Shown here: one piece after another, positions 1 to 62,339 of the stretch
Layout: each line of letters opens with the position of its first letter
Numbering within the stretch: position 1 is the first letter of the stretch
Origin: Eledone cirrhosa
Taxonomy: Eukaryota
Direction: 5' to 3'
DNA: 64,000 nucleotides
Assembly: GCA_964016885.1 (NCBI GenBank)
Contig: OZ024740.1
Span: 442,308,001-442,372,000, forward strand
Notes under the pieces: model-generated
The model's input: only the letters and a program-made list of their open reading frames with translations
Told to the model about the DNA's origin: nothing
Database searches by the model: none
Translations under genes and position numbers: made by a program

Positions 1-215
1 TATTATCAAAACTGTCCAGGTGATTGGTAGTTACCATAATTCTCGTTTGTACTTATTTTCTTGATTTATTCTTAAATTGAGTCTGGCAAACCCTATTGTC
101 TATAGTTAGTATTCTCTTCACCTTAGCGAATCTGGACCCTTACGATTTGAACACGTATATGTATATGTCTGTGCTTTTCTTTCTTGTTCAATTATATATT
201 ATATATCTATATCTA

Positions 216-4690: not shown

Positions 4691-5229
4691 TTAATACATT
4701 GTATCGAGCTCAATTTATCTGTAGTCATTGGCATCTACATATGAGATGACTCGTTCAATGAATATCTTTATGATGCTTTACTGCTGAGCTGTACTGCTTT
4801 TCTGGTACCTACTTGAGGATTTAAAAGTCATGTCTTTTCACCATGGATGCACCACAGGGATAATGTTACGATACGAACTTCCAAACTTTCTGCTAAAAGC
4901 TTAGTTCCGTATCACCCCCGGCTATATATAATTATTTTTAAAAAATGATCTTTTATTTCTAGGATAAAGTTACATGAAAATAAAGAGTTTATAGAAAAAG
5001 AAAGAAGTATTGGAAAGGACTATAAATGCTATAAATGAGAGGAAAAGGAGGGAAAGGACTACTAGACAAAGGAAGAAACGAGGGAGGGGATAGGGTGACT
5101 GACTCTGGGTACCAATTGACGAATAAAGGGCAACAACCCGCTTCGGTAACGAATGTTTATGGGGTTTGTACCTCCGAAGCACGGGTAAGGTTGTTTGTGG
5201 AAGACCAGCAGTCTCCCCTTTCCACGCCA

Positions 5230-5425
5230 CCGGTGTCGTTCAAGAGAAAGGCAATGGCCGGTGCAGCTTGGCACCAGTGACGTCGCAATTCGTTTCTATA
5301 GCTGAGTAAAGTGGAGCAACGTTAAATAAAGTGTCTTGCTCAAGGTCACAACGCATCATCAGGTCCGATAATTGAACTCACAACCTCACGATTGCAAGGT
5401 CAACGCACAACCCCCTTAGTCATGT
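5230..5425 (-). mobile_element. CORE-like SINE, diverged
   Basis: gagcaacgttaaataaagtgtcttgctcaagg...gaactcacaacctcacgattg matches 3250-3340. Confidence 0.65.
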
Positions 5426-15657: not shown

Positions 15658-18600
15658 TTTCTCTTTCTCTTAATTTTGAGTATATTTTTTGACCGGCCAC
15701 CTTCCTGGTGGCAAGGTTGTAAAAGAAAAGAAATTGTCATCCCTTGAATCGCAAGAATGTTTTGCAAATTTTGAAGGTGCCAGCTATCGCAGCCATTTGT
15801 AGACTATGAATTAGGGAGCTGCGCTTTTTGTCCGCAAATCCAAGTTCAGTCATACTTTGGTCCAAGCGGGTTGGTATATAACCCGTAGCACCAATAATGA
15901 TGGGTATGAAGCTAAAGGTGTATCTTGGATACTGGATTTGTAAACTCCTCATCAATGGTCCGTAGATGTCCTCCTTCTCCTGTATTTTTCTGACAACGTT
16001 TACATCAAGTGGGCAGCTGATCTCCACAACAGAACACGTTTTCAATGTGTGGTCCCAAACTACAATATCAGGCCGGTTGTGCTTTAATTTCAGGTTCCAC
16101 CAGTATTCCTTAGTGCCATCTGTCTCAATATATTCTTCCTCGTTTGTTGTTCATTTTGTTTTCCGAAGTGCGTTCCAGATGGTTCTAGCTATCCCATCGT
16201 GTCTCATGGGGAGGTAGTAGCGAGATGACATTCTTTCGCAGCTGGCAACAATGTGGCTTACATCCTCGATCTTTGTTTTACATAGCCTACATTTATTGTC
16301 AGCTGCTGGCGCTCCTCTTTTGTGCAGCAGATATTTGGTAGGGAGTTCTTGTTCCTGTATTGCATAGAGATATCCCTCAAGGTGTGATGTCATAAACTTG
16401 TCGGAACTCCATGCCAGGCTTTTTGAGTGGTTTATCCCCTCTATGGTCTGTGTTTTACGCCTCAAGTATCCATGCACAACTTTTTCTGTAAATTGGTCAA
16501 TTTTTTTTTCTTGTTTGAACATTGAATAGGATCTTCCGATTTCTCTGGGTGAGAGATTTATATCGGGCTTTATTCCATATCTCTCCTCCAGATCAGTCGC
16601 TATTCTAATGATATTTCTTTTTTCATGGTCATAAACCTGGGCAAGATGGTTGCCAACCTTTTTCCTCTGTTGAAGGTGTTGCTTCAGTGTCACTATCCGG
16701 GTCTCATATGTTGTTAATATTGATTTTAGACCCCGGCCACCTTCCTTGCGTGAGAAGTATAGCCTATCCACATCACCATTGATGTTAAAGTTCCCAGTAA
16801 CACTGAGAAGTTTTCGAGTTCTAACATCCATCTCACTTAGTTCTTGCAATGACCAGTTCAGTAGGCCAAATGTTGGCGTTAGAATTGGCACATCATAAGT
16901 ATTGTGGGCAATGTATTTGTTGTATGCTGACAGTTCTGATGACCATATTTTCTTTACTCTTCTGACAGTTCTGGTTCTCTCCTTATTTATGGGTCCATCA
17001 TATCTGACATTCTCATCCTGTCCAAGATATCTGTAGTTGTCACCTGACTGCAGAGGTTGTATTGTCAGGCCGTTCATCTCTAGATTTCTAGAGGAGGGCA
17101 CAGCTCTTCCACGTTTTACTGCCAAATATGCACACTTGGACTCACCAAATTTCATTTTGATGTCGGTTGAAAATTGTGTGATGAGGTCCAATTGTTTCTT
17201 GATGTCATTGATATTTGGCCCATACAACTTCAGGTCATCAACAAAGAAAAGATGGGAGATACTTCTGGTCCCACTTCTTTGTCGACCTTGTTTCCTGAGT
17301 AGGTAAGATAGTGGATTCAGTGAGAGAACGAAGAGTAGCACTGACAAGCTATCACCCTGAAAGATGCCCTTCTGGTAATGTATCTTATCAGTCTTAACCT
17401 GCTCCTTCTCACCTCTAAGGATCAAACTGGTGTACCAGTTCTTGGTCAGGCGTTCAACAGCAGCTACCAATGGTTGTGGGACTTTAGCTAACTGTAAAGC
17501 CTTAACAATCCACCCATGAGGTACACTATCAAATGCTTTTTGATAGTCCAGCCACACGACAGTCATGTTTCTGCGATTCTTTGTTGTTTTTTCCTGAATC
17601 ATTTTGTTAGTTAGTAGGTGATCTATGCAACCCCACACCTCCCTCTTTCCACCAGCTTGCTCAGGTGTTATGATGTTGTTGGTAGCACAGTGATCCTGTA
17701 AGAACAGGTTAAGGCACCCAGTATATAATTTATACATGATATTTTGGCAGGCAATTGGGCGGTAATTTTTAGCAAGGGTGGTTTGGCTATTTTTGGGAAT
17801 GAGGAGAGTAGAGGCAGTTGATAACCATCTGGGCAGTTCTTGTGTGCCCTTAATGGTTTCTGTAAACAGCCGTATGAGATCTTGCCGATAGAAAGTGAAA
17901 TTCTTCAACCAGTATCCTGTAATGAGGTCTGGGCCTGGCGATTTCCTATTCGACATTTTCTGTAGAGCTGTTTCCAGTATTGACCCATCTATGTCATATT
18001 GTTTTGTCTGGACATGTTGGCAGTAGTCCTGTTCCAGTTCTTTTAGCCAATTAGCTTGTCTGTTGAATCCGTCATCCGTTTCCCATACAGATCTCCAGTA
18101 GCTCTCAACCTGTTCTTTTGAAGGGGTGTCATTTACAGAGATTGAGCTTTTGCCACCGAAGCTGCGATAAACTGATTTAGGATCTCTGGCAAACAATCTA
18201 TTTAGCACTTGTCGTTTATGTGCTGTTGACTTATATTTTAGTCTTTCTGTTGTAGCTGTGAGGTGTTGTTTCAACTGGTGTAATTTGGAGTTCAAAGTTT
18301 TAAATTTTGTATCTCCAAATCTTCTCTCTAACTTTTTCTTTAGGTCTTCCTGGTGTTGTGTGAAGTTGCTCTCTATGTTGCATTTCATAACGACTGCGAT
18401 GTGTGAGATACTTCGTCTCAGGGACAAAATTTTGGTTTTTAAATTTCGCATCGACGCTGGTTCAGGCTTTCTGTTTGTATCTTGATTGCGTGGTTTTAGA
18501 TGTGTGTTATATGCTAGCAATGTGACAGCTGAAACATATAACAAAACATTAAGCGTTTCAAATGTCGTTTCTACACCTTTAGATCGTATAGCCTTCAGAT

Positions 18601-19633
18601 AATTGCCAGCTATTTCGTTCACCGCTTCCAATTCCAATTTAGTGGGTTCTTTACTGACTCTAGTGTTGTATGGTCTGTCACTCACATTAAGGCTGTGTAT
18701 CTCTTGAAACATATCATTCCATATCACTTGTAGGGAGCCCACAAGTTTTTGGTGCTCTGTTTGTTCAGTAGAGTCATGAATTTCAGCCTCGTTGTTGATG
18801 TGGTGACAATTACTACTAGAGTCAGCTGACCTTTCTCGCTGTTCTTCAGTGGAAGTGGGATGAATTTCAGCAAAATTGTTGGTGAGCTGTTCACTGTTAG
18901 ATTTAGCTGGCCATTCTCTTTGTCTGTCAGTGGAGGTGGGGTGGTTGTCTACAAGGGCTGTATTTGTAGTATCACTCGATTCCGTTAGATGTATCAATTT
19001 ACATCTAATGATACGTTTTGCCTGTTCATTTAAATGCTTTGGAGAAAAGTCTAATTCTGGGTGTTTGGAGTTCCATAAAGTTTTTAGCCTTTGCATAAAA
19101 CCGAACTTTTGGGGTTCAGATTGTTTGTATGCTTCATATAATACTTTGTTAAGCTCGTAGGTCCACTGTGTACAACGGTTGTAATTGCGATTTGGTCGAA
19201 GGAGACTTGTACTTTTTGCCATGATGAGTTCGTCTATTCACTAATATTTCGTATTTATTTTTCAAAATAGTCGATGATCTTCTTTAAAAGTTACGACAAA
19301 GTTCTGTCAGAACCAAATTTAAAGTTATTCACAGCTTGAGTAATATTTCTTTTCGGTTAGTTTTTAATTCTACAGCTGTGTTTTATATAAATGTAATATT
19401 TCTTTATAAATGTAATATAACAACGTTGCATTTATATGTTAAAGTGTATGTATCGTTCATATAAATAGGTGTTTTACAACACACTTACAGTTCAAACACT
19501 TATGTAGAATTATTGTATGTAATCTTACCGCGTAATGTAGCTCAACTTTTTCCAATATATGGTATGTTGCCTTCATGTAAGCCGTAATTACACACGTCCG
19601 ATTATCGGACACTGACCACAACGGTCGCCATTT
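15658..19633 (-). mobile_element. Near full-length RLE-type non-LTR retrotransposon (R4/Dong-like)
   Basis: Single long ORF with RT, CCHC and PD-(D/E)xK endonuclease; ~410-bp 5' UTR and short 3' UTR; both ends abut (TATG)n. Confidence 0.9.
15737..19222 (-). CDS. RT plus restriction-like endonuclease polyprotein interrupted by one in-frame TGA (16151-16153)
   Basis: KSPGPD, YRPIAC, WLDYQKAFDSVPH, GIFQGDSLS, FVDDLKLY, YRYLG, GGRGL, CRLC..EDVSHIVASC, RHD; in the same frame after the TGA: EYWWN..HNRPDIVVWD..VVEISCP..KEDIY. Confidence 0.9.
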
Positions 19634-22402: not shown

Positions 22403-22631
22403 GGATAGATAGATTCAAAATAAACAAACACCAACAACACCACACTACCACCACCACCACCACGCTACTACCACCACCACCACCACCACCACCACCACTA
22501 CCACCACCACCACCACCACCACCACCACCACCACCACCACCACACTACCACCACCACCACCACCACCACCACACTACCACCACCACCACCACCACCACCA
22601 CACCACCACCACCACCACCACCACCACCACC

Positions 22632-23312
22632 AGGCCTTTGACACCATCCTCCAGAACATCCCTGTGTTGAAAAAGGACCAAATCCTACGAACACACGATA
22701 TCATAAAGAGCAAAAGACAATCCAAGTCAATGAAAAACATCTTAACACATGCCAAAGTACTGCCAACCACAACAACGAAACCCACAGTAAAAAAATGCGA
22801 TAGACCCAACTGTGGCATTTGCATCAACCTAATAGAGGGTTCGGAATTCTATTTCAAAGAAGGACAACGTTTTATAGTAAAACACAATTTCACATGTGCA
22901 TCGGAAAATCTAATATATGTATTAACTTGCTCAGGTTGTCGAGAACAATACATAGGCCAGACCAAAAACAGCCTCCGCCAACGCATGACTGTCCATAGAT
23001 CCCAAATAAAAATACCGGAATACAGGAAAATACCACTGAGTGAACACATGGATACCTGTGCCGCCCATAATCATCCCAACTTCAGAATCTTTCCCCTCTA
23101 CAAATTTAAAGATAATGCCACCCATACCCAGCGCATCAGCAAGGAATTTTACTTTATTAACAAATACGGACCCCGTCTAAACACTTCTCCCTAAGACGAA
23201 CCCACAACATACACACATCAACATACATACCTACATCAGCACACATCTCTACCCACATATAAACACAATGACATACGTAAACACACATGTTCTATGGTGC
23301 AACACAAAAAAA

Positions 23313-23320
<8 letters not shown>
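22632..23320 (+). mobile_element. 5'-truncated Penelope-like element (Neptune-like)
   Basis: GIY-YIG ORF followed by a 3' UTR that runs into (TA)n; (CCA)n upstream. Confidence 0.85.
22664..23194 (+). CDS. PLE C-terminal Zn linker plus GIY-YIG endonuclease (truncated ORF)
   Basis: CDRPNCGIC linker, FTCASENLIYVLTCSGCREQYIGQT..LRQRMTVH..LSEH..KEFYFINKYGPRLN. Confidence 0.9.
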   Translation: MLKKDQILRTHDIIKSKRQSKSMKNILTHAKVLPTTTTKPTVKKCDRPNCGICINLIEGSEFYFKEGQRFIVKHNFTCASENLIYVLTCSGCREQYIGQTKNSLRQRMTVHRSQIKIPEYRKIPLSEHMDTCAAHNHPNFRIFPLYKFKDNATHTQRISKEFYFINKYGPRLNTSP

Positions 23321-23368
<48 letters not shown>

Positions 23369-23565
23369 ATATATGTGTATATATATATATATAGTGAATA
23401 TCATTTCACACCTTTTATTGTTAAGATTTGTGATGTTCTCTTAAGAGAACCGATTTTACCAAAAATATCGAATAATGTACACCATTTTACCAGGGGGAAA
23501 AAATACTGGTCCACCCACACACACACACACACATACACACGCGTACATTAACATACAAAGAGACT

Positions 23566-23608
<43 letters not shown>

Positions 23609-23714
23609 CTCCGTATAAGACAAAAGCTGAAAAATATCTTTTGACATGCTAAAATACCCCACACTGCTTACAGACACATTCCTACTGACCATCCCGCTAC
23701 CACGAATTATTCTG

Positions 23715-23766
<52 letters not shown>

Positions 23767-23879
23767 ATCTTAATAGCCATTTGAACTGTCAACAGGCTGC
23801 GGTTCGCACACACATCACTGCTAACCATTATCACAACATCGAAGACTTTACTACTACTACACACACACACACACACACA

Positions 23880-24246
23880 TATTTGTTGTGAAAGAGTCAT
23901 TTCTCAGTCTTGGCGCAAAATCAATTTTTTACATTCACATGACCTCTACCGACCAATCAAAATTGTTTTGACGACAATAATTTTTGCAACACCAAGTAGC
24001 GCTGGTGCCACTTTTTAAACATAAAAATAGGTAGAATTCCCAAAACTAATCAGACCAGAGCAAACAACACGGACGCTCTATCTCAAAATTATTTTTGAAA
24101 AGCATTTAGAAATGCGCAACCGGTAAAAACTTAAAAACTTAAAACCACAACTGAATACTAACCCATACAATTACTAATACTCTTTTATTGCTAATTAAAC
24201 TATTTTTCAACCGTGAACAATTTGTCAGCATTTTCTATTCCGTTTA

Positions 24247-24252
<6 letters not shown>
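23880..24252 (+). mobile_element. Short (TA)n-terminated element with HHR variant
   Basis: Closely similar copy at 57788-58270; contains GACCAATC and the HHR-like motif at 24092. Confidence 0.8.
24092..24128 (+). ncRNA. Hammerhead variant (U3-A8; GCAA in place of GAAA)
   Basis: TTT, TTGAAAA, GCATTT ag AAATGC, GCAA, CCGG, TA, AAA. Confidence 0.5.
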
Positions 24253-24318
<66 letters not shown>

Positions 24319-24610
24319 ATTGAACAACCTTGAATCATAGACAACCTATGTATTTCTGGGGGTACCTAGTATGCCTGGAGATATTAACTTCAATCTCTTT
24401 CTCCGTCTGTTGAGAACAATTCTGCTGTTCTATTTAGCTGGTATTTTTTTTTTTAGTAGTAATTGTAGACAGCAAGTCTTTGATTTTCCCGCTTTTACTT
24501 CGGTCCAGTTTACATACGGGTCACTTTTACGACCTTTCAGACCTTTATTTGCTGGCAGGAGGTTATATATTTTGTCATTCCTGGGACGTTTAGCCATAGG
24601 AAGGGAAAAT

Positions 24611-24692
24611 GCTTCTCTGATGAGCTTTGGTTTTCCATCATAAATCCATCGGATTTATGAGGTTTTACAAAGCGAAACTGATCAGTAAGGGC
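24611..24692 (+). ncRNA. Type I hammerhead ribozyme
   Basis: gcttct, CTGATGA, GCTTTG..tcataaatcc atc ggatttatga..CAAAGC, GAAA, palindromic CTGATCAG, TA, agggc. Confidence 0.85.
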
Positions 24693-25103
24693 CACTAGGA
24701 GAGGTAAATATTTATATTATATTTTTTAATGTATTTAAAAAAATTGATTGAATTTTACTTGTTCTGCTTATCTTAATATTAAAGTTCTGGTGTATCAAAT
24801 TAATACCATTGAACAACCTTGAACCATAGACAACCTATGTATTTCTGGGGGTACCTAGTATCCCTGGACATATTAACTTCAATCTCTTTCTCCGTCTGTT
24901 GAGAACAAGTCTGCTGTTCTATTTAGCTGCTATTTCTTTTTTTTTTTAGTAGTAATTGTAGACAGCAAGTCTTTGATTTTCCCGCTTTTACTTCGGTCCA
25001 GTTTACACACGGGTCACTTTTACGACCTTTCAGACCTTTATTTGCTGGCAGGAGGTTATATATTTTGTCGTTCCTGGGACGTTTAGCCCTAGGAAGGGAA
25101 AAT

Positions 25104-25185
25104 GCTTCTCTGATGAGCTTTGGTTTTCCATCATAAATCCATCGGATTTATGAGGTTTTACAAAGCGAAACTGATCAGTAAGGGC
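25104..25185 (+). ncRNA. Type I hammerhead ribozyme (second unit)
   Basis: Identical to 24611-24692. Confidence 0.85.
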
Positions 25186-25265
25186 CACTAGGAGAGGTAA
25201 ATATTTATATTATATTTTTTAATGTATTTTAAAAAATTGATTGAATTTTACTTGTTCTGCTTATC

Positions 25266-25315
<50 letters not shown>

Positions 25316-25319
<4 letters not shown>

Positions 25320-25973
25320 TTTAGCGAGGATTTTTATATGAAATCGTGTGTCGAAACAGATATTGTTATACTTGGGAGGGTCATATTTGCGTAATATTGC
25401 CAGAATTAATAACAGAACACACTCACTGTTTGGTTGGTTTTCGCTTCTCGCTGTCTTTTATATCTGCGATCTAACTTACCCGGTCCTCAATGTTGCCATT
25501 GACTGACCGACGGTCAAAAATAATACAGATACAATATAGACACAAACACATATATATAGTTTACATAATTTACATAAATCTTTCGTTGCACATCTGCAAC
25601 ATCGTCAGTGGTGTTATATTCTTTGTTCCTCCTGTTGTGTTGTATGTCTACGCCATTTTTTTACAGACAGACTGAATAAAAAAATGGCGTAGACATACAA
25701 CACAACAGGAGGAACAAAGAATATAACACCACTGACGATGTTGCAGATGTGCAACGAAAGATTTATGTAAATTATGTAAACTATATATATGTGTTTGTGT
25801 CTATATTGTATCTGTATTATTTTTGACCGTCGGTCAGTCAATGGCAACATTGAAGACCGAGTAAGTTAGATCGCAGATATAAAAGACAGCGAGAAGCGAA
25901 AACCAACCAAACAGTGAGTGTGTTCTGTTATTAATTCTGGCAATATTACGCAAATATGACCCTCCCCAAGTAT

Positions 25974-25978
<5 letters not shown>
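25316..25978. mobile_element. Near-perfect ~300-bp-arm palindromic insertion in (TA)n
   Basis: 25366-25662 is the reverse complement of 25677-25975, with a ~14-bp spacer; the ORF track shows the same peptide on both strands; related pieces at 36611-36686 and 57395-57762. Confidence 0.9.
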
Positions 25979-26046
<68 letters not shown>

Positions 26047-57787: not shown

Positions 57788-58270
57788 TATTTGTTGTGAA
57801 AGAGTCATTTCTCAATCTTGGCGCAAAACCAATTTTTTATTCACATGACCTCTACCGACCAATCAAAATTGTTTTGACCACAAGAATTGTTGCTGGAGCC
57901 ACTTTTTTTAACATAAAAACAGTCTTGGCGCAAAATCAATTTTTTACACTCACATGACCTCTACCGACCAATCAAAATTGTTTTGACCACAAGAAATTTT
58001 GCAACACCAAAGTAACGCTGGAGCCACTTTTTTAACATAAAAACAGGTAGAATTCCCAAAACTAATCAGATCAGAGCAAACAGCACGGACACTCTATCTC
58101 CAAATTATTTTTGAAGAGCATTTAGAAATGCGCAACCGGTAAAAACTTAAAAACTTAAAACCACAACTGAATACTAACCCATACAATCACTAATACTCTT
58201 TTATTCCTAATTAAACCATTTTTCAACTGTGAACAATTTGTCAGCATTTTCTATTCCGTTTACCAATATA
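57788..58270 (+). mobile_element. Second copy of the 23880-24252 element with an internal ~105-bp duplication
   Basis: Direct similarity; tcttggcgcaaaa..aacataaaaacag occurs twice. Confidence 0.85.
58108..58144 (+). ncRNA. Hammerhead variant (U3.G8; GCAA)
   Basis: TTT, TTGAAGA, GCATTT ag AAATGC, GCAA, CCGG, TA, AAA. Confidence 0.45.
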
Positions 58271-58305
58271 TAATAACTTGTGTGTTACACCTCTATTCTT
58301 TTAAC

Positions 58306-58402
<97 letters not shown>

Positions 58403-58614: not shown

Positions 58615-58660
58615 AATATGGTTTTATAAATATAGTTTCCATTTGTATATATATATATAT

Positions 58661-58798
58661 TAGAAAGTGAAGTTTTCTTTACAAAATGAAAAATAACCGA
58701 GGTGTCCTACACGAGTGAAAGTATAAAGAAAAAAAGATGAAATCGAAAATTCAACTGTAGTCTTATTTTAAAAACAAATATATATTTATTTGGTTCCT
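58661..58798 (-). mobile_element. 3' portion of the 62042-62275 element, in (TA)n
   Basis: Reverse complement aligns to 62136-62275. Confidence 0.85.
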
Positions 58799-58929
58799 AT
58801 ATATATATATATATATATACAATAAAATTATATATATATATATACACAAAATAACATTATATATATATATATATATTGATATTTTATATATATATATATT
58901 GATATAAATATATATATATATATATATAT

Positions 58930-61990: not shown

Positions 61991-62046
<56 letters not shown>

Positions 62047-62101
62047 AAAACCACAGACTCTCAGATGTGAGAAAAACCTCAGACCCTCCATCTCAACTCT
62101 A

Positions 62102-62137
62102 CTTTTGAAAAGCAGAAGAACTGCGAAACCGGTAAAG
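62102..62137 (+). ncRNA. Minimal hammerhead ribozyme with U3-A8 core
   Basis: CTT, TTGAAAA, GCAG aagaa CTGC, GAAA, palindromic CCGG, TA, AAG; element 62042-62275 between (TA)n tracts. Confidence 0.75.
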
Positions 62138-62269
62138 GAACCAAATAAATATATATATTTTTTTAAAAAATAAGACTCCAGTTGCATTTTCGATTTCATC
62201 TTTTTTTCTTTATACTTTCACTCGTGTAGGACACTACGGTTATTTTTCATTGTGTAAAAAAAACCTCAC

Positions 62270-62339
<70 letters not shown>

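What the first reader, a model, noticed from the sequence alone, without database searches (positions are those of the whole stretch)
58661..58798. A retroposed copy starts within 1 nt of the predicted ribozyme cleavage site
Seen: the HHR at 62102-62137 would cut after A62134, giving a 3' product AAGGAACCAAATAAAT... The homologous copy at 58661-58798 (minus) starts (TA)n-AGGAACCAAATAAAT and runs to the same 3' end. Inference: the template was the self-cleaved RNA, which is genomic evidence that the U3-A8 ribozyme works in vivo. One instance could be chance truncation.
Basis: partly seen in the sequence, partly recalled or inferred. Interest (0 to 1): 0.7.

Follow-up and report, generated by a model that had tools for sequence, protein, structure and literature searches.

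The report
Minor ribozyme-cut footprint in Penelope copies
This short repeat is one of over sixteen thousand pieces of a Penelope-like jumping gene; about half of the pieces begin at the likely transcription start and only 2-4% begin at the predicted cut site of its self-cutting RNA, a small but real excess that likely records occasional cutting in living cells.

Summary
In detail: the copy at 58660-58798 (minus) starts 1 nt after the predicted hammerhead cut (after A62134). Both window copies are pLTR fragments of an abundant Penelope-like retrotransposon (RT plus GIY-YIG, (TA)n-targeting; 16,390 exact matches to one 17-mer anchor).

In an unbiased sample, 68 of 142 arms start 62-73 nt upstream of the cut, about 30 nt below a TATA box (likely transcription start). 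Only 5 of 142 start at the cut (-2..+2). Uncut RNA is therefore the main template.

Genome-wide junction counts still show a local excess at the cut: about 3.5-4 times background, mode exactly at the cut, and back near background by +4. Against a clean ribozyme reading: TA microhomology and reverse-transcriptase stalling are not excluded; the subfamily with a stronger stem I is not enriched; a sister family with an A13C core also peaks there, at about half the rate.

Likely occasional in vivo cleavage (0.55); about 0.4 for this single copy. U3-A8 hammerheads in these elements are published. The scan noted a similar small excess earlier in another family of this genome.

The parts
58660..58798 (-). 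Short pLTR copy of Penelope-like family A, starting at +1 after the predicted cut and ending at the long ('tail') 3' end; (TA)n on both sides
   Evidence: 92.2% over 141 nt to 62136-62276
62062..62276 (+). pLTR copy of family A starting at -73, i.e. a member of the dominant class that begins at the likely transcription start
62042..62061 (+). Partial direct duplication of the 5' end (about -67..-48) joined in front of the copy, likely a template jump at the RNA 5' end (inference)
62102..62137 (+). Type I hammerhead motif with U3-A8 core, 3-bp stem I, 4-bp stem II, palindromic ACCGGT stem III; predicted cut after 62134
   Evidence: no Rfam hit
62205..62214 (+). Short 3' end of the family (ends ...TTTATA, about +78): second fixed 3' end, used by 36 of 156 alignment segments
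62215..62276 (+). 'Tail' between the two fixed 3' ends; in a tandem unit (L286) it continues TATATA and reaches an ATG 27 nt after the tail end
58798..58929 (.). (TA)n target array at the 5' junction of the short copy
22424..24251 (+). Sister family B, 5'-truncated: GIY-YIG frame 22424-23194, promoter, hammerhead with U3-A8 and GCAA (A13C) core from 24095, predicted cut after 24125; used as a comparison
57788..58310 (+). Second family B pLTR copy with tail, next to the (TA)n region beside the finding (limits read by eye)

Best explanation
The copy is a fragment of a Penelope-like retrotransposon whose copies mostly begin at a likely transcription start 73 nt upstream of the hammerhead, and a small excess of copies, possibly including this one, likely arose from RNA already cut by the ribozyme. 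Shown: copies sit in (TA)n; they have two fixed 3' ends (about +78 and +142) that both end in TATA-like sequence; the main 5' peak is at -73..-62, about 30 nt below a TATA box; a minor 5' peak lies at -2..+2 with its mode at 0. Inferred: the element protein nicks (TA)n and starts reverse transcription at one of the two internal sites in the 5' UTR. It runs off the RNA 5' end, which is the capped start in most cases and the 5'-OH cleavage product in roughly 1-3% of arms (the excess over background). The cDNA is then joined by microhomology or extra bases. Cutting probably needs a dimer through ACCGGU or help from the protein.
For: Unbiased sample (loci L031-L120, chosen by a tail motif): 68 of 142 arms at -73..-62, 5 of 142 at -2..+2, 11 at -61..-3, 1 at +3..+7 (14 of 156 alignment segments dropped as not reaching +60 or starting after it). 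TATAAAA at -102 and CCAAT at -152 in family A; CATAAAA at -106 in family B, whose 5' peak is -76..-64 in 18 of 58 segments. Same-design genome-wide tiles (8 A/T + 10 N + 17-mer anchor): 158 for -8..+2, against 39, 49 and 57 for three control tiles. Of the first 100 of the 158, 82 lie at -2..+2 and 18 at -9..-3 (hand tally). All-flank search: 331 matches; first 100 = 11 mutated read-through copies, then -2:20, -1:11, 0:25, +1:17, +2:16 (hand tally), out of 16,390 anchor matches. The +4..+6 search gave 69, about 10 of them read-through. Pure-(TA)n junctions: about 41-50 (scaled from the listed 100) against 11.6 expected. Of 40 candidate loci that I picked as pure-flank and fetched, 31 scored as single-arm family copies: -2:13, 0:11, +1:6, +2:1. 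Several junctions have a C or G just before AAGG, so no microhomology is needed. In both families 0 outnumbers -1 (25:11 and 26:9), as expected for a cut rather than a stop at the base of stem III. Precedent: R2 5' junctions track the ribozyme cut (PMC3774820, passages). U3-A8 pairs are natural and active in vitro (PMC3088659).
Against: The peak is small (1.8% by filtered genome count; 3.5%, CI 1.2-8.0%, in the sample) and broad; in family A the five positions do not differ from uniform (chi-square p=0.20). The top position is only about twice the highest control position (-9, hand tally). The site is one of few TA dinucleotides in the region, and the -2 class is ambiguous. The subfamily with a 4-bp stem I is not enriched among cut-site copies: 16:13:13 among single-arm copies, against 8:7 in controls. 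Family B carries A13C in 48 of 49 cores; A13 changes inhibit 10-100 fold (PMC4075628, one passage). Yet B still has about 1.0% junctions at its cut site, with mode at 0 (26 of 61). The monomer MFE does not form stems I and III. No RNA data were available. [quoted passage not shown]
Confidence: 0.55

Rival explanations
1. The folded but uncut hammerhead (three-way junction, or the ACCGGU dimer duplex) stalls reverse transcriptase at about position 0, so the peak records structure, not chemistry.
For: Family B with the A13C core also peaks at 0 (26 of 61). The ACCGGU duplex is predicted at -10.3 kcal/mol and appears in the dimer fold. A smaller bump at -9, the base of stem II, suggests that structure-linked stops exist (about 6 pure-flank junctions in the first 100). 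No stem I subfamily effect.
Against: A stop at the base of stem III should copy A17 and give -1, but 0 outnumbers -1 in both families. The more stable stem II gives the smaller bump. Family B has about half the rate of family A (1.0% vs 1.8%, Fisher p=7e-6 on scaled counts).
Confidence: 0.2
2. Ordinary 5' truncation plus end-joining bias: GGTA|AAGG offers TA/TAAA microhomology to the (TA)n target, lies next to a long AT-only stretch, and GGAACC/GGTTCC favours hairpin joins between inverted arms.
For: 20 of 89 junctions are the ambiguous -2 class. Many +2 junctions are hairpin joins through GG. The AT-rich stretch +8..+40 has 0.61 ends per position in the sample, close to the 1.0 at the cut.
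Against: Other A/T runs collect far fewer pure-flank junctions (TTTT about 19, AAAA about 5). The only other TA tested (-35, half of copies) has 4-5. The excess persists in single-arm copies and at position 0 itself. Pure-flank junctions fall to about 7-8 at +4..+6 (hand tally).
Confidence: 0.2

Closest known systems
Hammerheads of metazoan Penelope-like elements (Cervera and De la Pena 2014, PMC4209133; parts 1-2 of 4 read, supplements not seen)
   Same: Type I hammerhead in the pLTR; U3-A8 covariation (reported in Schistosoma Cercyon elements); small palindromic helix III needing a dimer; mostly solo truncated copies, some in opposite-strand pairs.
   Different: Here stem II is 4 bp with no extra base before G10.1 (their min-HHRs have 7-8 bp and that base). 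The paper states an absence of in vivo evidence; in the parts read it gives no census of copy 5' ends.
Poseidon element PAc of Anolis carolinensis (Frangieh et al. 2024, PMC11167929; parts 1-2 of 4 read, supplements not seen)
   Same: Two internal reverse-transcription starts define the tail; AT-rich targets; uncut RNA is the dominant template.
   Different: PAc has C3-G8 and the cut lies inside the ORF. Here the cut is in the 5' UTR about 170 nt before the ATG, and both 3' ends are TATA-like, so they could pair with the (TA)n primer. They found no RNA-seq reads ending at the cut; here 2-4% of genomic arms begin there.
Neptune/Nematis-type EN+ PLEs (Craig et al. 2021, bioRxiv 10.1101/2021.04.23.441226; passages read)
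   Same: RT followed by a CX2-5CxxC linker and C-terminal GIY-YIG; microsatellite targeting; inverted 5' arms and tail; hammerhead in the pLTR, function called unclear.
   Different: Clade placement not tested by a tree; Naiad is excluded by domain order.
R2 retrotransposon HDV-like ribozyme (Eickbush et al. 2013, PMC3774820; passages read)
   Same: Genomic 5' junctions used as a record of the ribozyme cut.
   Different: In R2 the cut defines the 5' end of full-length copies. Here it accounts for a few percent, and the element has its own likely promoter.

Membership tests
EN+ Penelope-like element (canonical) | RT followed by C-terminal GIY-YIG endonuclease | tested here: met
   L151: RVT_1 E=5.9e-7; GIY-YIG E=0.0022, below Pfam cut-off on an 84-aa piece; frames broken
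EN+ Penelope-like element (canonical) | pLTR repeated at the 5' end of the ORF, optional tail, inverted 5' arms | tested here: met
   L286 tail runs into the ORF start; two 3' ends, 36 at +78 and 96 at +142..144 of 156 segments; head-to-head arms
EN+ Penelope-like element (canonical) | RT phylogeny within PLEs | not tested
   no tree built
Neptune/Nematis-type PLE | CX2-5CxxC linker upstream of GIY-YIG | tested here: met
   KCGRSNCGTC in L151 translation; feature as described
Type I hammerhead ribozyme | Core nucleotides with 3-8 pair, GAAA, NUH triplet, stems I-III | tested here: met
   consensus core in most sampled copies; compensatory stem II change between families A and B
Type I hammerhead ribozyme | Match to an Rfam hammerhead model at gathering score | tested here: not met
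   0 matches in the window; minimal PLE forms may fall below the cut-off
Type I hammerhead ribozyme | Self-cleavage | not testable with these tools
   only the indirect genomic peak; no RNA holder listed
min-HHR of Cervera and De la Pena 2014 | Long stem II (7-8 bp) and an extra base between A9 and G10.1 | tested here: not met
   4-bp stem II, no extra base; closer to their variants with a small palindromic helix III
Non-LTR retrozyme | Non-coding tandem monomers each carrying a hammerhead | tested here: not met
   copies are dispersed solo or inverted pLTR pieces of a coding element

The most novel reading that the evidence does not exclude
Genomic copies of Penelope-like elements carry a countable fossil record of hammerhead cleavage in the germ line. 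A U3-A8 hammerhead cuts a few percent of pLTR transcripts in vivo, and so does a sister ribozyme with a non-canonical GCAA (A13C) core. The ratio of start-site copies to cut-site copies then measures in vivo ribozyme activity family by family.
Probability: 0.35. Interest if true: 0.68.

Novelty: new member of a known kind. Interest (0 to 1): 0.46.

Why it matters
Whether the minimal hammerheads of Penelope-like elements cut in cells is open: PMC4209133 notes an absence of in vivo evidence, PMC11167929 found no RNA-seq reads at the site, and Craig et al. call the function unclear. A family with over 16,000 arms allows a census. It shows that the ribozyme is not what normally defines the template, since the transcription start dominates. 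It also gives a small, position-specific excess at the cut, which turns the question into a cheap bench test with two natural cores (GAAA and GCAA) and a mapped likely promoter.

Tried and rejected
Rfam scan: 0 hits. The first DNA search returned only the best 40 of 249 candidates, biased to full matches, so it was not used for counts.

RNA: no RNA holder listed. Logan contigs of 4 runs laid on L024 listed no place where many molecules begin or end; contig depth cannot show starts, and X1 may be the assembly's own sample, so this was not used as evidence.

Stem I subfamily test: no enrichment. Family B as a negative control was inconclusive: lower rate but same mode. One search was mis-anchored on the second repeat unit and served only as a denominator (6,259; 0 of the 100 listed start at the cut). 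The generic hammerhead scan was faulty (it missed family A) and was redone. The control tile labelled -11 actually starts at -12.

The RT frame at window 16151-19237 is unrelated to this family. No full-length copy with an intact 5' pLTR was recovered from the 10 long loci, so where full-length copies start is untested.

Literature searches listed no census of PLE 5' ends at the hammerhead site; subscription papers and supplements were not seen. 'Octopus' was tried as a search word on a hunch only.

Full report
Numbering: 0 = window 62135, the first base after the predicted cut. An 'arm' is one oriented copy; many insertions have two arms head-to-head. Counts marked 'hand tally' were read by eye from tool listings, which show at most the first 100 matches, and were scaled to the whole count where stated.

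1. Observation. The motif at 62102-62137 has a full hammerhead core with U3-A8, stem I (3 bp), stem II (4 bp), palindromic ACCGGT and a GUA triplet; the cut falls after A62134. Rfam gives 0 hits. The minus copy at 58798-58660 matches 62136-62276 at 92.2% over 141 nt and lies between (TA)n runs.

2. What it is. The window lies in a 3.0-Gb genome. A 24-nt tail motif has 7,314 exact matches and a 17-nt anchor just after the cut has 16,390. A long copy (L151) has an RT frame (RVT_1, E=5.9e-7) followed by a CX4CXXC linker and a GIY-YIG piece (E=0.0022, below cut-off). In L286 the tail continues TATATA and reaches an ATG 27 nt later, so the hammerhead lies in the 5' UTR about 170 nt before the ORF. 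Copies end at two fixed 3' positions, +78 (36 of 156 segments) and +142..144 (96 of 156), both at TATA-like sequence, and run into (TA)n. Head-to-head arms are common. This is the anatomy of a canonical endonuclease-bearing Penelope-like element of Neptune/Nematis type; no tree was built.

3. Census of 5' ends. I took 90 loci covering 92 of the first 100 tail-motif matches, chosen without regard to the 5' end. Of 156 alignment segments, 142 were kept as true arms: 25 run past -130, 5 start at -129..-74, 68 at -73..-62, 11 at -61..-3, 5 at -2..+2, 1 at +3..+7, 20 at +8..+40 and 7 at +41..+60. The main peak is about 30 nt below TATAAAA (-102), with CCAAT at -152. Sister family B shows the same design: CATAAAA at -106 and 18 of 58 segments starting at -76..-64. 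I infer a Pol II start; this is not shown by RNA. A putative TATA/Inr in pLTRs is also noted for rotifer elements (PMC3846280, passages). The window copy at 62062 belongs to this class. Most copies thus came from uncut RNA, in line with the anole element (PMC11167929).

4. Is there a second peak at the cut? In the sample, 5 at -2..+2 against 11 over 59 upstream positions gives p=0.006. Genome-wide, tiles of the same design gave 158 (-8..+2), 39 (-33..-23), 49 (-22..-12, about 7 of them mutated read-through copies) and 57 (+47..+57); anchor match rates are similar, 0.61-0.71. Of the first 100 of the 158, 82 lie at -2..+2. An all-flank search gave 331; the first 100 split as 11 read-through, -2:20, -1:11, 0:25, +1:17, +2:16, about 1.8% of 16,390, a lower bound because of the filter. 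A search for +4..+6 gave 69 with about 10 read-through, at anchor rate 0.51: about half the per-position rate over all flanks, and near background for pure (TA)n flanks (about 7-8). Restricting to pure (TA)n flanks removes hairpin artefacts: about 41-50 at -2..+2 against 11.6 expected, ratio 3.5-4.3 (the Poisson p-values ignore variation among positions and overstate certainty). Of 40 loci that I selected as pure-flank candidates, 31 scored as single-arm family copies, 7 as inverted, 1 as a duplication, and 1 failed the family regex; the 31 split -2:13, 0:11, +1:6, +2:1. The 20 control loci spread evenly over -33..-24. The -2 class is what an end at 0 gives when the flank ends in TA, but it is also what TA microhomology gives. 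The highest control position is -9 (about 6 in the first 100), roughly half of position 0. The peak is real, local and modest.

5. Cause. For cleavage: the mode is the first base after GUA in two families with different downstream sequence, 0 outnumbers -1 (25:11; 26:9), and some junctions have C or G right before AAGG. R2 gives a precedent for junctions recording a ribozyme cut, and U3-A8 pairs are active in vitro. Against: subfamilies with 4-bp and 3-bp stem I (linked to a downstream variant) contribute alike (16:13; 7:13 against 8:7 in controls). Family B has A13C in 48 of 49 cores, a position whose change inhibits 10-100 fold. Yet of the first 100 of its 107 matches, 61 are junctions (-2:11, -1:9, 0:26, +1:8, +2:4, +3:2, +4:1; 28 repeat expansions, 5 mutated read-through and 6 ambiguous dropped; about 21 separate events at 0), about 1.0% of 6,259. 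Either B still cuts, or part of the peak is a structural stop or a joining bias. The monomer does not fold into the active shape by prediction, and the ACCGGU dimer duplex is -10.3 kcal/mol. No RNA run was available.

6. Mechanism and odds. Shown: target, two 3' ends, two 5' peaks. Inferred: nicking of (TA)n, internal priming, run-off at the capped end (major) or at the cleaved end (minor), then joining. Cleavage footprint 0.55, stalling 0.2, microhomology bias 0.2, cleaved RNA as the main template 0.03. For this copy, the excess fraction of about 0.6-0.7 times 0.55-0.6 gives about 0.4.

7. Known and new. The element type and U3-A8 hammerheads in pLTRs are published (PMC4209133). My searches listed no census of PLE 5' ends at the hammerhead site. 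Papers were seen as stated: PMC4209133 and PMC11167929, parts 1-2 of 4; PMC3088659, passages and section 8; bioRxiv 10.1101/2021.04.23.441226, bioRxiv 10.64898/2026.07.22.740005, PMC4075628, PMC3774820 and PMC3846280, passages only; no supplements, and Fig. S2 of PMC11167929 may bear on the novelty. Earlier notes of this scan, read after the census and not checked here, report a small excess in another family of this genome (e1-9541206), single cases elsewhere (e1-9895560, e1-9555734) and one case with no pile-up (e1-7808156). Hammerhead numbering and promoter spacing rules are from general knowledge.

8. Verdict. Observation confirmed; interpretation partly supported. New member of a known kind, with a modest and testable piece of evidence on an open question. 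Interest 0.46.

Noticed in passing
window 24095-24125; L246-L285: Sister family B (6,259 anchor matches) has a fixed GCAA instead of GAAA in its hammerhead core (48 of 49), while keeping U3-A8, the ACCGGT palindrome and a compensatory stem II change.
   Followed up: partly
L286 about 5210-5250 (minus strand); window 62205-62214 and 62267-62276: Both fixed 3' ends of family A fall at TATA-like sequence in the element itself (TTTATA; TAATATATA), so priming could use pairing with the nicked (TA)n target, unlike the non-homologous start reported for the anole element.
   Followed up: partly
L187: A family A arm is joined head-to-head to a family B arm in one insertion, suggesting that two different RNAs were copied at one break.
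   Followed up: no
L167, L202, L212 and listed matches: Some copies join the 5' part of the pLTR directly to the cut-site region, deleting the ribozyme core.
   Followed up: no
L130, L134, L214, L305: Short direct duplications that restart at or near position 0 after the internal TA run (about 0..+23).
   Followed up: no
several loci: Other hammerhead families with C3-G8 cores and palindromic ACTAGT or GAAC stem III regions occur in flanks of the fetched loci.
   Followed up: no
window 16151-19237 (minus): 1028-aa open frame with RVT_1 and zf-RVT, a non-LTR element unrelated to this family.
   Followed up: partly
window 25290-26042 and 24314-25272: A 750-bp near-perfect palindrome between TA runs, and a 493-bp tandem duplication right after the family B copy.
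   Followed up: no
L014, L028, L045, L303 flanks: Another repeat with a GC-rich hairpin end often sits in the same (TA)n arrays.
   Followed up: no
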